From IMG/VR virus record IMGVR_UViG_3300020414_001760: a DNA stretch of 20,000 nucleotides. One strand, given 5' to 3'. This document shows, one piece after another, positions 12,891 through 15,308 of this stretch. Position 1 is the stretch's first letter. Each line of letters starts with the position of its first letter. Source of the stretch: an uncultured virus (IMG/VR IMGVR_UViG_3300020414_001760) (lineage: Duplodnaviria; Heunggongvirae; Uroviricota; Caudoviricetes). The position numbers and the translations under genes are program-made. The notes below the pieces were generated by a model. The model was not told where the DNA came from. It saw only the letters and a program-made list of their open reading frames with translations, and made no database searches.

Positions 12891-12914
12891 TTGTGGGGAC
12901 CAAAGCCCCCACAA
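12891..12914 (-). terminator. Strong intergenic hairpin (weak terminator or mRNA-stability/processing element)
   Basis: TTGTGGGGGC-TTTG-GTCCCCACAA just after the 12924..13370 stop; poor U-tract (CAGTTT). Confidence 0.5.
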
Positions 12915-12923
12915 ACAAATTAA

Positions 12924-13370
12924 TTACGCATTCGCGAAATCGTCGTCGTCAGTACCTGATAATGTGTTATCATCACCTGCTTCTTCAATCTGCGCCGCAC
13001 CATCTGAACCAGATGCTGTAAATGTCCAAGACAATGATGTTCCTGATAGTGCATTTGAACCTGTACCATCTGGTGCAATCACTGTAGCTTTTCTACCTGC
13101 GATTTTAGAAATCTGATAAGTTTCGTTATCGTCACCTTTTACTGTAATGGCCATTTCACCTGCCGCTAAAGCACTTGCAAGTTTACCTGTTGTTAGTGTA
13201 CAAGTAAATTCACCTGCTGTTCCGATTTCTTCACAAACGAATTTTTTTGAACCCTTTTGCTTTACGATATAACCTTCTTTAACTGCTGTGCCGTTATGAA
13301 AGTCTACTTTGATTTCATTTCCACCTGCTGTAGGTGTACCGAAAAATCTCTTATTAATTGGTCTTCCCAT
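12924..13370 (-). CDS. Hypothetical late protein (148 aa), probably structural
   Basis: AAGGAGA SD, its own late promoter and leader, a downstream hairpin and an acidic C-terminus. Confidence 0.8.
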   Translation of the reverse strand: MGRPINKRFFGTPTAGGNEIKVDFHNGTAVKEGYIVKQKGSKKFVCEEIGTAGEFTCTLTTGKLASALAAGEMAITVKGDDNETYQISKIAGRKATVIAPDGTGSNALSGTSLSWTFTASGSDGAAQIEEAGDDNTLSGTDDDDFANA

Positions 13371-13394
13371 TTGTTTTCTCCTTTGACGTTCTAG

Positions 13395-13450
13395 GTCTAC
13401 GGGGTTGTTGTCCCCATAAGTCCGCCGTAAATGCGGCTCGCTTTATAGAC
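13395..13450 (-). ncRNA. Putative structured 5' leader of 12924..13370
   Basis: GTCTA.../...TAGAC closing stem, AAG-CGA-GCCG(CATTTA)CGGC-GGA-CTT arm and ATGGGG(ACAACAA)CCCCGT hairpin; begins at the predicted late +1. Confidence 0.55.
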
Positions 13451-13455
13451 ACAAG

Positions 13456-13461
13456 TATTTA
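13456..13461 (-). promoter_or_regulatory. T4-type late promoter core
   Basis: GATAAATACTTGT. Confidence 0.75.
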
Positions 13462-13490
13462 TCAAAGTTTAGGGAATGGGTAAAGGAAAG

Positions 13491-13708
13491 TATAAGCAAA
13501 ATAGGTAGGACTTGGTTACACCTACAAGCACGTACCGGAATACCATTCTAATACGTACAACCTAACCCCGCTAGTGACTGCGATGTGAACCTGCGGATTT
13601 CTCCTACAAGCCCTGGGTACCACCCCTGGTTAGTCAAGTTCGCCCCTTCTGGTAAAGAGCTCTTCCTTGCACTATAATAAGAAGTTAATTACTCTCCTTA
13701 TGCTTATA
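13491..13708 (-). ncRNA. Large structured ncRNA, manA-motif-like
   Basis: GC-richer non-coding stretch closed by TATAAGCA/TGCTTATA, with at least six hairpins including a GAAA tetraloop and complementary ACCA/TGGT loops. GGGGTGGTACCC and a 3' GTAGGT..ACCAA.TCCTACCT hairpin recall the manA motif (from memory). Confidence 0.65.
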
Positions 13709-13713
13709 ATACT

Positions 13714-13742
13714 AATATAGCACCACTAGTTACAAAAAGCAA
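13714..13742 (-). promoter_or_regulatory. sigma70-type promoter for the ncRNA
   Basis: -35 TTGCTT (13742-13737), 17-bp spacer, extended TGn plus -10 TATATT (13719-13714). The predicted +1 (~13707) coincides with the start of the RNA closing stem. Confidence 0.6.
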
Positions 13743-13773
13743 CCAGAAAATGCAAAAAGGTTTACCAAAATAG

Positions 13774-13971
13774 TTAAATTTTACTATTTTGATGATTAAC
13801 CGATATATGTCCGGCAACAATGCCCGTATTTGGACCTTGTTTGAAACGATATCCAGAAGTCCCGCCACCATTAGTATCAATGGTATTTCTAGATGAAGCT
13901 AAAAGACGCTCTTTGCGTTCTTTCATTTTCTTCTCACGGTACTGTTTATGTAAATGATCGAATCTGTTCAT
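13774..13971 (-). CDS. Small basic protein (65 aa) under glutamine-riboswitch control
   Basis: ATG preceded by a GGGGAGG SD; lies 26 nt downstream of the aptamer. Confidence 0.75.
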   Translation of the reverse strand: MNRFDHLHKQYREKKMKERKERLLASSRNTIDTNGGGTSGYRFKQGPNTGIVAGHISVNHQNSKI

Positions 13972-13997
13972 AACACCCTCCCCTGTTAAAGTTTGAG

Positions 13998-14045
13998 TGC
14001 GTTCCTTCGCATTATGCTACTTCCGTCCTAGATAGGATGAACGAT
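13998..14045 (-). promoter_or_regulatory. Glutamine-I riboswitch (glnA RNA motif) aptamer
   Basis: ATCGTTCATCCTATCTAGGACGGAAGTAGCATAATGCGAAGGAACGCA: P1 CGTTC/GAACG, short P2 TCCT/AGGA, and a GGAAGTA...GAAG E-loop arm capped by GCA(TAA)TGC, matching the glnA three-way junction as I know it. Confidence 0.85.
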
Positions 14046-14055
14046 TGTGTAATAA

Positions 14056-14061
14056 TATTTA
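14056..14061 (-). promoter_or_regulatory. T4-type late promoter core upstream of the riboswitch
   Basis: CTAAATA immediately after the gp23 terminator, about 10 nt before the aptamer. Confidence 0.6.
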
Positions 14062-14064
14062 GTC

Positions 14065-14092
14065 AAAAAGAAAGGCCCCGAAGGGCCTTTCT
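14065..14092 (-). terminator. Rho-independent terminator after the major capsid gene
   Basis: AGAAAGGCCC-TTCG-GGGCCTTTCT followed by TTTT; the cUUCGg tetraloop is typical of T4-like terminators. Confidence 0.9.
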
Positions 14093-14131
14093 AGTACTTC
14101 TTTAGTTACATTAAGTAACTAATCCTATGGA

Positions 14132-15298
14132 TTAGCTAAATGTTACGTTCGAGATAGTAACTGTACCTAAGTAGTCTGCCGCATTACCAAGAGATGATGC
14201 TGTGTTGTTTAACTCAACATAACCGTATCTTGTCATAAAGCTAACTACTGGCTCAAAGCTAGACGGATCTAGTACTACGCCACTTGACATTAAAGGAATG
14301 TAAGGGCAGTAGAACGCAGGTGCGTCTGATTCACTTGAACCTTTGTAACCTACTAATACTGCTGTTGCATCAGTGGCATATGAATCTACATATACTTTCA
14401 TAGCTGAATTCAATGTTCCAACCATTTTAGTATTTGTAGGAGCCTCAAATGCACCTTCAGTTGTTCTTGCGAACGCTGAAGTTGTTGCAGATTGTAGGAT
14501 AGTTAATGCGTGTGGTGATACCACAGCATAGTTACCAGCACCACGTCTAGTTCTCTGTGCGATGTTGTTAGCAACACGGTTGATCATCACAGCCAAAGCC
14601 GCGTGTTCATCACCTACGAATGTTGCAGTACCGCTTACAGCGTTCTGGTCGTATGCTTGTTGGTTTTGCGTTCCAGCTAAAGCTCTTAAAGAAGCTAATA
14701 CTTCTTGATCGATCTCAGCAGTAATTTCTTGGGCTAATGCCGCCATAATTTCTGCTTCAATATCGATGCCTTGCTGTGCTTGAGCATCTTGAGCCGCTTC
14801 AAAAGTCCATCTAGCTGATAGCTTTCTAGTTTTTGCTTCGACTGTTTGCTTTAAGATCTGGATAGATAATCTCTTACCTGCTTGACCTTCAAGTGCCGCT
14901 GTTGCTGAACCTTTCGGTGTAGCGTCAGTGGCGTTACCTGAATATGCCGCCGCGATCTTAAATGGTGATAATGCTTCTTCACCAACTTCGTTACCATCTG
15001 ACGAATCAGCGTAACGTACTCTTAATGTGTGGATTTGACCCACAGGACCTGTCATCGGCTGTACACCAACTAATTCGTTGGCTATTACAGTCGGCATAAC
15101 ACGTCTGATTACTGGTAGGATAACTCTGTTTAGAGTCGCAACATTACCGGCGCTTGTAGAACCAGCTGTAGCAGTCTCATTCAACCACTTGCGTGTGTTT
15201 TCTAGAGTACTTGCCATTACAGCCTTTTTGTTACCATTTAGGCCTTCTAAAAGTGCAGTTTTGGTATCCTGCCAGCGACTTTCTAGTAGTTCTGACAT
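14132..15298 (-). CDS. gp23: Major capsid protein (T4 gp23 family)
   Basis: PVIRRVMPTVIANELVGVQPMTGPVGQIHTLR, VEAKTRKLSARWTFEAAQD, LAQEITAEIDQE, AFYCPYIPL, SFEPVVSFMTRYG; follows gp21 and gp22. Confidence 0.97.
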   Translation of the reverse strand: MSELLESRWQDTKTALLEGLNGNKKAVMASTLENTRKWLNETATAGSTSAGNVATLNRVILPVIRRVMPTVIANELVGVQPMTGPVGQIHTLRVRYADSSDGNEVGEEALSPFKIAAAYSGNATDATPKGSATAALEGQAGKRLSIQILKQTVEAKTRKLSARWTFEAAQDAQAQQGIDIEAEIMAALAQEITAEIDQEVLASLRALAGTQNQQAYDQNAVSGTATFVGDEHAALAVMINRVANNIAQRTRRGAGNYAVVSPHALTILQSATTSAFARTTEGAFEAPTNTKMVGTLNSAMKVYVDSYATDATAVLVGYKGSSESDAPAFYCPYIPLMSSGVVLDPSSFEPVVSFMTRYGYVELNNTASSLGNAADYLGTVTISNVTFS

Positions 15299-15308
15299 TG
15301 TTTTCTCC

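What the first reader, a model, noticed from the sequence alone, without database searches (positions are those of the whole stretch)
13491..13742. Stand-alone ~218-nt manA-like ncRNA with its own host-type promoter and complementary ACCA/UGGU loops
Seen: closing stem TATAAGCA/TGCTTATA; hairpins ATAAGGAG/CTTCTTAT, GCTCTTT(ACCAG)AAGGGGC, GGG(GTGGTA)CCC, a GAAA-capped arm (13587..13613), CGC(AGTCACTA)GCG, a GTACGTA/TACGTGC arm ending in ATGGTA (13528..13558) and GTAGG(TGTAACCAAGT)CCTAC (13505..13525). ACCA occurs three times and TGGTA twice, mostly in loops, suggesting kissing pseudoknots. Established: manA is an orphan motif of marine bacteria and phages with no known function, proposed as possibly cis-regulatory. 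Inference: here it has paired ends and the next gene has a separate late promoter, favouring a trans-acting early/middle RNA. Speculatively, the UGGU loops could also read tRNA CCA ends.
Basis: partly seen in the sequence, partly recalled or inferred. Interest (0 to 1): 0.7.

Follow-up and report, generated by a model that had tools for sequence, protein, structure and literature searches.

The report
Divergent phage manA RNA gene
A roughly 217-base folded RNA of the known 'manA' family sits just after the capsid gene of a marine phage behind its own promoter, and its loops co-evolve as expected if copies of the RNA clip together into the cage-like particles recently seen for this family by cryo-EM.

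Summary
Window 13708-13491 (minus strand) is a full-length but divergent manA RNA (RF01745). It scores 46.4 bits, below Rfam's cut-off of 55.2, with E=1e-10. Its homolog in Pelagibacter phage Mosig scores 64 bits.

A sigma-70-type promoter sits at a fixed distance in 52 of 52 relatives, placing the start at P0.

Loop pairs L5-L7 and L8-L9 show partner-specific complementarity (0 of 1000 permutations each). These are the intermolecular kissing contacts reported in a 2026 cryo-EM preprint on manA pentamers, decamers and a 60-mer cage. Loop L1 carries a 6-nt palindrome in 42 of 53, which suggests a symmetric self-contact.

An intrinsic terminator follows directly in 25 of 53 relatives, so there manA is a stand-alone gene. 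This window's copy has no terminator. A conserved late-promoter-like GATAAATAC and a freshwater-2 leader follow it, and one RNA-library contig bridges manA to the next gene.

Best reading: a self-contained, early-transcribed, self-associating RNA module, not a switch for the next gene. The tRNA-CCA idea is not supported. It is a new variant of a known family.

The parts
13737..13742 (-). -35 hexamer TTGCTT of the manA promoter
   Evidence: Part of the only TTG-N17-TGnTATAWT match in the window. The aligned position is TTGAC(A/T/C) in 45 of 52 relatives and TTGC(T/A)(T/C) in 7 of 52.
13714..13719 (-). -10 hexamer TATATT with an extended TGc
   Evidence: Its distance to the conserved AGUG is 39-42 nt in 48 of 52 relatives. 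The inferred start is about 13707, the second base of P0; this is not measured.
13491..13708 (-). manA-class RNA domain closed by stem P0 (13708-13701 with 13498-13491)
   Evidence: RF01745 match at 13700-13495, 46.4 bits. P0 has changes on both sides in 7 of 8 pairs. RNAalifold predicts the P0 core. MFE fold.
13678..13700 (-). P1 hairpin. Loop L1 is AGUAAUUAA (13693-13685) and holds the palindrome UAAUUA (13691-13686)
   Evidence: A palindrome of 6 nt or more is present in 42 of 53 L1 loops (UAAUUA 30, UAGCUA 7, UUAUAA 5). Mean longest palindrome is 5.21 against 3.35+-0.20 in shuffles, 0 of 500.
13642..13660 (-). P3 hairpin with loop L3 ACCAG (13653-13649)
   Evidence: Helix 99.1% paired. UACCA in L3 is complementary to UGGUA in L8, 5 bp.
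13615..13626 (-). P5 hairpin with loop L5 GUGGUA (13623-13618)
   Evidence: L5-L7 complementarity of 4 bp or more in 48 of 53. Cognate mean 3.98 against permuted 3.22+-0.11, 0 of 1000.
13587..13613 (-). P6 arm with a bulged A and a GAAA tetraloop (13601-13598)
   Evidence: The Rfam consensus also has gaaa here.
13568..13583 (-). P7 hairpin with loop L7 AGUCACUA (13579-13572). ACUA at 13575-13572 pairs with L5 UGGU
   Evidence: Relative L118 has L5 GUAGUA with the same L7, giving 4 Watson-Crick pairs. L010 and L025 are 92.8% identical and differ by a paired A-U/G-C change in L5 and L7.
13528..13558 (-). P8 arm with loop L8 UGGUA (13545-13541)
   Evidence: Helix covaries in 7 of 7 pairs. L8-L9 cognate mean 4.23 against permuted 3.76+-0.09, 0 of 1000.
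13505..13525 (-). P9 hairpin with loop L9 UGUAACCAAGU (13520-13510). ACCA at 13516-13513 pairs with L8 UGGU
13456..13463 (-). Late-promoter-like GATAAATA between manA and the next gene
   Evidence: ATAAATA occurs 6 times in the window, all on the coding strand, and 5 of 6 lie just upstream of gene starts. GATAAATAC is conserved upstream of the freshwater-2 leader in relatives.
13368..13437 (-). freshwater-2 RNA (RF02980), the 5' leader of the 148-aa ORF 13370-12924. It is a neighbour, not part of manA
   Evidence: 51.9 bits against a gathering score of 49.9.

Best explanation
This is a divergent member of the manA RNA family, built as a self-contained module.

A strong host-type (sigma-70-like, so presumably early) promoter starts transcription at about 13707. 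That is the 5' strand of a closing stem, P0, which pairs the first bases with bases 13498-13491 and encloses a nine-helix fold.

The exposed loops are complementary to each other: L5 to L7, L8 to L9, and L3 to L8. L1 is self-complementary. By analogy with the cryo-EM structures of other manA RNAs, these loops most likely join copies of the RNA into closed homo-oligomers built from pentamers. The palindromic L1 is a candidate for the symmetric contact between pentamers.

The RNA therefore most likely acts as a particle or scaffold in trans. Its cargo or target is unknown. It most likely does not act as a ligand-sensing switch for the next gene.

Shown here: family membership, the fold, the conserved promoter, the loop covariation, and terminators in about half of the relatives.
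Inferred: early timing, the start site, that the loop pairing is between molecules in this RNA, and action in trans.

In this particular phage the module has no terminator of its own. Its 3' end is either made by processing, or the module is the 5' domain of a longer early transcript.
For: Family membership:
- Full-length RF01745 match, E=1.2e-10.
- The Mosig homolog scores 64 bits, above the cut-off.
- 20 of 20 relatives scanned give full-length matches of 34.7-61.1 bits.

Fold:
- 89.4% of cells paired against 37-49% for slid controls. 51 of 67 pairs change on both sides.
- P0 is also predicted by RNAalifold and by MFE folding.

Promoter:
- TTGnnn-16/17-TAnnnT is present in 52 of 52 relatives that have upstream sequence. 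It sits at a fixed distance in 48 of 52.
- The hexamers are conserved between the window and Mosig although the flanking genes differ.
- The pattern is unique in the window.
- Canonical manA in phage P-SSM2 also has TTGACA-16-TGcTATAAT 7 nt before P1.

Independence from the next gene:
- A terminator starts within 30 nt of the end of the fold in 25 of 53 relatives, against 7 of 310 control windows.
- A TATAAATA-type motif overlaps the 3' arm of P0 in 18 of 53.
- Downstream genes are unrelated to each other: rubrerythrin, peroxiredoxin-like, gp32-like, cold-shock, and an 'MGRP...' protein.

Self-association:
- Of 21 loop-loop combinations, L5-L7 and L8-L9 have the strongest partner-specific complementarity, 0 of 1000 permutations each.
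- Compensatory states occur at three L5 positions, including between relatives that are 92.8% identical.
- These are the pairs described as intermolecular kissing loops in manA pentamers (preprint 10.64898/2026.07.01.735769, sections 7-8 read).
- L1 holds a palindrome in 42 of 53, and no other loop is enriched to this degree.
Against: - This copy has no terminator between 13491 and the next gene.
- In an RNA library, a 235-nt contig with 0 mismatches spans 13327-13561. It joins the 3' third of manA to the freshwater-2 leader and the ORF start.
- Another contig (15 mismatches, so a relative) joins the upstream 65-aa ORF to the manA 5' part. Contigs cannot show transcript ends, and DNA carry-over is possible.
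- In Mosig and P-SSM2 the fold ends 15-28 nt before a start codon, the classic place for a cis-regulator.
- manA is on the same strand as its neighbours wherever this could be judged: the downstream ORF in 27 of 31 loci and the upstream ORF in 38 of 38, by a mechanical ORF call.
- Covariation cannot tell pairing within a molecule from pairing between molecules.
- My mapping of loop numbers onto the preprint's rests on three matches (GNRA at L6, L5-L7 and L8-L9 complementarity). I did not see its figures or supplements.
The permutation tests ignore relatedness.
Confidence: 0.55

Rival explanations
1. It is a cis-regulatory 5' leader, either a riboswitch or a protein-binding element. The fold senses a signal and tunes expression of the gene downstream: here the freshwater-2-led 148-aa ORF, elsewhere gp32, rubrerythrin or purL. 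In this reading the terminators seen in relatives are its expression platforms.
For: - This is the original proposal for the family (Weinberg 2010, PMC2864571, passages read).
- The fold ends 15-28 nt before a start codon in Mosig and P-SSM2.
- It is always on the same strand as the next gene where this could be judged.
- This copy has no terminator, and an RNA-library contig bridges it to the next gene.
Against: - The downstream genes have no common function.
- The 25 terminators have many different stem sequences. By eye they start after the P0 3' arm and show no conserved alternative pairing with the fold.
- In 18 of 53 relatives a late-promoter-like motif overlaps the end of the fold, so late transcripts of the gene would lack it.
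- Here a second leader RNA (freshwater-2) with its own conserved promoter-like motif lies between manA and the gene.
- The most strongly co-evolving single-stranded parts are loop-loop partners, not a pocket.
Confidence: 0.3
2. It is a 5'-terminal protective or insulating structure. P0 buries the 5' end of an early transcript and the compact fold shields it from 5'-end-dependent decay. The fold has no function of its own.
For: - The predicted start lies inside P0.
- This copy probably reads through into the next gene.
Against: - It does not explain the copies that carry their own terminator (25 of 53).
- It does not explain partner-specific loop covariation or the L1 palindrome.
- It does not explain conservation of a 200-nt nine-helix fold where a simple hairpin would do.
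Confidence: 0.08
3. The UGGU loops read the 3' CCA ends of tRNAs, as T-box leaders do.
For: UGGU(A) stands in L5 and L8 of this copy.
Against: - L5 is GUUGUN, GUUGCA, GUUAUA, GUAGUA or GUAGUG in 24 of 53 relatives, and it changes together with L7.
- The UGG of L8 is matched by CCA in L3 and L9 of the same RNA.
- There is no tRNA gene in the window.
- The T-box comparison is recalled, not tested.
Confidence: 0.02

Closest known systems
manA RNA motif (Rfam RF01745; Weinberg et al. 2010, PMC2864571), for example the copy in Prochlorococcus phage P-SSM2 at 142837-143034 (181.6 bits)
   Same: - Same order of helices P1-P9, with a full-length model match.
- The AGUG junction, the GUGGU loop L5 and a GNRA at L6.
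- Complementary L5/L7 and L8/L9 loops. In P-SSM2 these read GUGGUG/UUACCA and CUGUA/UACAG by eye.
- Marine phage setting.
- A consensus sigma-70-type promoter directly upstream.
   Different: - It scores below Rfam's cut-off, as do 18 of 20 relatives scanned.
- It has an 8-bp closing stem P0 outside the Rfam match, which is supported by covariation.
- L1 is a 9-nt loop with a 6-nt palindrome.
- L3 is UACCAG, complementary to L8.
- L8/L9 use UGGU/ACCA instead of CUGU/ACAG.
- About half of the subgroup carry their own terminator.
- The hosts are not cyanophages only. Examples are Pelagibacter phage Mosig and a phage whose capsid protein is closest to jumbo myophages.
Cryo-EM assemblies of manA RNAs: pentamer-based decamers and a 60-mer icosahedral cage (bioRxiv 10.64898/2026.07.01.735769; passages and sections 7-8 read, supplements closed)
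   Same: - The loop pairs that covary here (L5-L7, L8-L9, L3-L8) are those named there as intermolecular kissing loops.
- A GNRA L6, as in the variant that uses an L6-P6' contact.
   Different: - Those are in-vitro assemblies of other family members. No assembly was tested for this RNA.
- The preprint calls manA a putative cis-regulatory element.
- Its main text does not mention a palindromic loop or how pentamers join. Searches for 'palindrom', 'L1-L1', 'two-fold' and 'self-complementary' found 0 occurrences.
ROOL, GOLLD and OLE RNAs, large bacterial and phage RNAs that form RNA-only homo-oligomers (Nature 2025, PMC12286853; search listing and start of abstract seen)
   Same: Natural non-coding RNAs that build closed homo-oligomers through RNA-RNA contacts and have unknown function.
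   Different: Those RNAs are several times longer. They are unrelated in sequence and fold. No family link was tested or is claimed.
Palindromic dimerisation loops such as the HIV-1 DIS kissing loop (recalled, not checked in any call)
   Same: A 6-nt self-complementary sequence in a hairpin loop. It keeps its symmetry through paired changes: UAAUUA, UAGCUA, UUAUAA.
   Different: The context is entirely different. Here the inferred role is a symmetric contact within a multimer, and it has not been demonstrated.

Membership tests
manA RNA (RF01745) | Score at or above Rfam's curated gathering score (55.2 bits) | tested here: not met
   46.4 bits, not listed at gathering threshold. This is a curated cut-off, not a biological feature. 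E=1.2e-10. 18 of 20 relatives also fall below it, while Mosig (64), L106 (61.1) and L101 (57.0) pass.
manA RNA (RF01745) | Match over the whole model with all helices in order | tested here: met
   Model positions 1-192 of 192 are aligned, not truncated.
manA RNA (RF01745) | Consensus helices supported by compensatory changes among homologs | tested here: met
   53 sequences. 89.4% of cells paired, 51 of 67 pairs changed on both sides, covariation score 0.50 against about 0.1 for slid controls. RNAalifold finds 29 of 39 pairs with compensatory changes.
manA RNA (RF01745) | Sequence continuity with accepted members | tested here: met
   blastn gives 69.8% identity over 238 nt to the Mosig element, which passes the cut-off. 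The aligned core is shared.
manA RNA (RF01745) | Marine phage or bacterial setting | tested here: met
   The phage structural module surrounds it. Relatives lie on IMG/VR contigs. Marine metatranscriptome runs hold it.
manA homo-oligomers (cryo-EM preprint) | Formation of pentamer-based closed assemblies | not testable with these tools
   Only indirect support: partner-specific complementarity of L5-L7 and L8-L9 and a palindromic L1.
Riboswitch or cis-regulatory leader | Expression platform that competes with the sensor fold | tested here: inconclusive
   By eye, the terminators of the 25 relatives begin after P0 and differ in sequence. No systematic search for alternative pairings was run. 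This copy has no terminator.
Riboswitch or cis-regulatory leader | Coherent set of regulated genes | tested here: not met
   Downstream genes are rubrerythrin, peroxiredoxin-like, gp32-like, cold-shock protein, the MGRP protein and others. In P-SSM2 they are purL and hsp20.
Stand-alone small RNA gene | Own promoter | tested here: met
   13742-13714, unique in the window. Conserved in 52 of 52 relatives. Sequence evidence only.
Stand-alone small RNA gene | Own terminator or a defined 3' end | tested here: not met
   No terminator-like site lies between 13491 and 13370. A terminator is present in 25 of 53 relatives.
Stand-alone small RNA gene | Discrete transcript of the expected size | tested here: inconclusive
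   Only assembled contigs of RNA libraries were available. Two short contigs lie wholly inside manA, and two bridge it to neighbouring genes.

The most novel reading that the evidence does not exclude
manA RNAs are not riboswitches. They are phage RNA genes, running from promoter to terminator, whose products assemble in the infected cell into closed, capsid-like RNA shells. The quaternary contacts are written in the loops: L5-L7, L8-L9 and L3-L8 around the five-fold axis, and a palindromic L1 across the two-fold axis. Natural selection keeps these contacts through compensatory change. That would be the first comparative evidence that an RNA-only cage is a selected biological object and not an in-vitro curiosity.
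Probability: 0.35. Interest if true: 0.85.

Novelty: new variant of a known kind. Interest (0 to 1): 0.6.

Why it matters
manA has been an orphan 'riboswitch candidate' since 2010. In 2026 it became the first natural short RNA seen to build a 60-subunit cage, but only in the test tube.

This locus and its 52 relatives add three things:
- The family reaches well beyond cyanophages, in a form that Rfam's threshold misses.
- It comes with its own strong promoter, and in about half of the relatives its own terminator. That fits an RNA gene better than a leader.
- The loops that hold the cryo-EM assemblies together co-evolve in nature, together with a palindromic loop that could supply the symmetric contact a closed shell needs.

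These points make the question 'do RNA cages exist and matter in infected cells?' directly testable. Cultivable phage-host pairs are available: Mosig with Pelagibacter HTCC1062, and P-SSM2 with Prochlorococcus.

Tried and rejected
- The window's own assembly is not held.
- The nearest record, G001 (9114 bases), gave no manA candidate in the genome search, and the controls did not ring either. Locus L041, from a contig of the same length, holds a manA identical to the window's. I therefore treat as a filter miss, not as absence.
- blastn of a divergent relative (L084) against isolate phages found nothing.
- The pattern scan of bacterial genomes gave 9 loci. Only 2 are real, and those two are identical copies on 153-kb and 335-kb contigs of one MAG. 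The other 7 are chance matches.
- My first promoter pattern had the wrong spacing and found nothing. It was corrected.
- No tRNA genes were found.
- Strand of neighbouring ORFs does not discriminate, because the whole region is unidirectional.
- RNA libraries: only Logan contigs were available, so no transcript start, end, strand or level could be read. Parts of the stretch without cover in single runs mean nothing.
- A literature search for 'freshwater-2' with 'RNA motif' returned 0 papers.
- The Melnitz paper (PMC9004378) has 0 occurrences of manA.
- The pelagimyophage survey (PMC7029224) reports finding no riboswitches with Riboswitch Scanner.
- I did not build a covariance model of the subgroup, and no phylogeny-aware covariation test was run.
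- A single-register test of the kissing pairs with the count of structure pairs was not possible. The L7 loops of different types sit one column apart in the MAFFT alignment. Per-sequence scripts were used instead.

Full report
**Setting.** All genes of the window lie on the minus strand and form a phage head and tail module: portal, protease, major head protein at 15298-14132, and a 1773-aa fibre. The head protein is closest, at 67-71% amino-acid identity, to jumbo myophages of Sinorhizobium, Vibrio, Serratia and Erwinia. It is not closest to pelagimyophages.

After the head gene comes a strong hairpin terminator at 14092-14069, and then three structured RNAs in a row:
- A glutamine riboswitch at 14045-13996 (59.5 bits) in front of a 65-aa ORF.
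- The element in question.
- A freshwater-2 RNA at 13437-13368 (51.9 bits), which includes the ribosome site and start codon of a 148-aa ORF.

Two long-range helices, P2 and P4, were missed.
- At Rfam's curated threshold nothing is reported here.
- A permissive scan aligns 13700-13495 to all 192 positions of the manA model: 46.4 bits against a cut-off of 55.2, E=1.2e-10.
- The single sequence folds into the same helices, including the 8-bp closing stem: -68 kcal/mol, z=-2.17.

**Relatives.**
- blastn finds one isolate phage with similar DNA, Pelagibacter phage Mosig: 69.8% identity over 238 nt, in an unannotated 256-nt gap before a rubrerythrin gene. That element passes the Rfam cut-off at 64 bits. 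It is the only copy in Mosig, and Melnitz has none.
- A 14-base core shared by the window and Mosig was used to scan viral contigs.
- With Mosig and the window, 63 places held a real homolog. After removing 4 truncated copies and collapsing duplicates, 53 unique sequences were aligned.
- The context counts use a slightly different set of 53, de-duplicated on the core.
- Of 20 relatives scanned with Rfam, all 20 gave full-length manA matches of 34.7-61.1 bits, but only 2 reached the cut-off.
- Two further copies, at 49.9 bits, lie on 153-kb and 335-kb contigs of one marine MAG.
- This subgroup is therefore largely invisible to standard annotation.

**Structure.**
- On the 53 sequences, 89.4% of cells form standard pairs, against 37-49% when the 3' partners are slid by 1-3 columns.
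- 51 of 67 pairs change on both sides. The covariation score is 0.50 against about 0.1.
- P0 lies outside the Rfam match. It changes on both sides in 7 of 8 pairs, for example A-U 26 against U-A 20 at one position.
- RNAalifold, which knew nothing of my structure, also predicts the P0 core.

**Promoter.**
- All 52 relatives with upstream sequence have TTGnnn, a 16-17-nt spacer and TAnnnT.
- The -35 hexamer is TTGACA in 28, TTGAC(T/C) in 17, and TTGC(T/A)(T/C) in 7, the window among them.
- The -10 hexamer ends 39-42 nt before the conserved AGUG in 48 of 52.
- In the window this is TTGCTT-17-TGcTATATT at 13742-13714, the only such pattern in 20 kb (expected 0.07).
- That places the likely start at about 13707, inside the 5' arm of P0. 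This is inferred, not measured.
- The hexamers are conserved between the window and Mosig although the flanking genes differ.
- The canonical manA of P-SSM2 (181.6 bits) has TTGACA-16-TGcTATAAT 7 nt before P1.

**What follows the fold.**
- In 25 of 53 relatives a GC-rich hairpin with a U-tract starts within 30 nt of the end of the fold. The same test hits 7 of 310 random control windows from the same loci. The stems differ widely in sequence. In these relatives manA is a promoter-to-terminator gene.
- In 18 of 53 a TATAAATA-type motif overlaps the 3' arm of P0 and is followed by an A/C-rich leader and a gp32-like gene.
- Ten relatives have neither feature. Among them are Mosig, where the start codon follows after 28 nt, and the window.
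- In the window, 27 unstructured bases lead to GATAAATAC and then the freshwater-2 leader. The same motif precedes freshwater-2 leaders in relatives, which carry a terminator in between.
- ATAAATA occurs 6 times in the window, all on the coding strand. Five of the six lie in short gaps just upstream of gene starts, although the total count is no higher than chance.
The claim 'stand-alone' is true for the family but is not shown for this copy.

**Loops.** A 2026 preprint reports that manA RNAs form pentamer-based decamers and a 60-mer cage. These are held by intermolecular kissing loops L5-L7' and L8-L9', or in another variant by L5-L7', L3-L8' and a GNRA L6-P6' contact.

Numbering helices in order of appearance reproduces its labels: L6 is the GNRA loop, and L5/L7 and L8/L9 are complementary in the Rfam consensus.

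I compared each loop with each other loop of the same RNA and with loops of other relatives.
- Among 21 combinations, L5-L7 (3.98 against 3.22+-0.11) and L8-L9 (4.23 against 3.76+-0.09) stand out, each with 0 of 1000 permutations reaching the observed value.
- L5-L7 has 4 or more contiguous pairs in 48 of 53 sequences.
- Its compensated states are UGGUA/UACCG, UUGU/ACAG, UUGC/GCAG, UUAU/AUAG and UAGU/ACUA.
- L010 and L025 are 92.8% identical. They differ by a paired A-U to G-C change between L5 and L7.
- L8-L9 uses UGGU/ACCA here, AUGGAAU/AUUCCAU in another branch, CAGA/UCUG and CGAGA/UCUCG in divergent members, and CUGUA/UACAG in P-SSM2, read by eye.
- L3 is almost invariant (UACCAG) and matches L8 (UGGUA, 5 bp here). 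One relative has the compensated ACCU/AGGU.
- The permutation tests ignore relatedness, and covariation cannot say whether the pairing is within or between molecules. The intermolecular reading rests on the preprint.

**A new point.** The 9-nt loop L1 contains a perfect 6-nt palindrome in 42 of 53 sequences: UAAUUA in 30, UAGCUA in 7, UUAUAA in 5.
- The mean longest palindrome is 5.21 against 3.35+-0.20 in shuffled loops (0 of 500).
- No other loop shows comparable enrichment.
- The three palindromes differ by symmetric double changes.
- A self-complementary loop is what a two-fold (isologous) contact between pentamers would need.
- The preprint's main text does not mention such a contact. Its supplements were closed.
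- Eleven sequences lack the palindrome.

**Expression.** Sixteen marine RNA-library runs hold 36-48% of the sampled words of 12900-15300. All are kept as assembled contigs. In the four runs laid, from four studies:
- A 198-nt contig (13493-13674) and a 158-nt contig (13511-13668) lie wholly within manA.
- A 235-nt contig with 0 mismatches spans 13327-13561, joining manA to the next leader.
- A 368-nt contig from a relative spans 13646-13992.

These show presence in RNA libraries and are compatible with read-through. They cannot show transcript ends, and DNA carry-over is possible.

**Verdict.**
- Membership in the manA family is near certain.
- The best mechanism is a self-contained, strongly transcribed, self-associating RNA module (0.55).
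- The classical cis-regulatory reading remains a serious rival (0.30), mainly because this copy and some others run directly into the next gene.
- The tRNA-CCA idea is not supported.
- In print, I found manA described only as a putative cis-regulator. I found no mention of it in the pelagimyophage or Melnitz papers searched.

Noticed in passing
window 14045-13996 (-) and ORF 13971-13774 (-): A glutamine riboswitch (RF01739, 59.5 bits) directly precedes a 65-aa ORF of unknown function (weak phrog_32989 hit, no Pfam). The same riboswitch lies upstream of manA in relatives L073, L083, L084 and L100, so the pairing is conserved.
   Followed up: partly
window 13437-13368 (-) and ORF 13370-12924 (-): A freshwater-2 RNA (RF02980) forms the leader of a 148-aa 'MGRP...' protein with no PHROG or Pfam family. 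The order manA, then GATAAATAC, then freshwater-2, then the MGRP gene recurs in several relatives and in a MAG contig. A literature search found no paper on the motif.
   Followed up: partly
L126 and L130 (genome contigs; handle G002): Identical copies of the locus (promoter, manA, terminator, late motif, freshwater-2, MGRP start) lie on 153-kb and 335-kb contigs of a MAG labelled Candidatus Neomarinimicrobiota. Given the jumbo-phage-like capsid protein, this may be a large phage genome binned with the MAG, or it may hint at the host.
   Followed up: no
window 1663, 7993, 9326, 10827, 13456 and 19123 (all on the - strand): All six ATAAATA motifs are on the coding strand. Five sit in short gaps just upstream of gene starts, which is consistent with T4-type late promoters. 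The total count is no higher than chance.
   Followed up: partly
window about 13770-13758 (-); relatives L007, L043, L048, L055, L059, L065, L070, L098, L106: A conserved ATTTTGGTAAA motif lies some 20-30 nt upstream of the manA -35 hexamer in many relatives. It is unexplained: it could be an UP-element-like sequence or the end of a small ORF.
   Followed up: no
L001 3000-3255 (Mosig MT647606, 108142-108397): The Mosig manA RNA (64 bits) lies in a gap with no annotated feature, between Mosig_00142 and a putative rubrerythrin gene. I found no mention of it in the papers searched.
   Followed up: partly
L008, L009, L025, L039, L046, L051, L076, L081 and others: In one branch, manA is followed by TATAAATA, a 60-70-nt A/C-rich leader and a roughly 300-aa gp32-like gene starting MNTSIAALKRS. 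From memory, this recalls the unstructured autoregulatory leader of T4 gene 32; that comparison was not tested.
   Followed up: no
L064 54-394 (-): Downstream of manA in this relative lies a sub-threshold match to the cspA thermoregulator (41.3 bits, cut-off 78), ahead of a cold-shock protein gene.
   Followed up: no
window 13742-13737 (-) and relatives L007, L043, L048, L064, L065, L073: In the capsid-adjacent lineage the -35 hexamer is TTGCTT, TTGCTC or TTGCAT instead of TTGACA. From memory, TGCTT resembles the core of the T4 MotA box of middle promoters, but the spacing does not fit well and no MotA gene was looked for.
   Followed up: no
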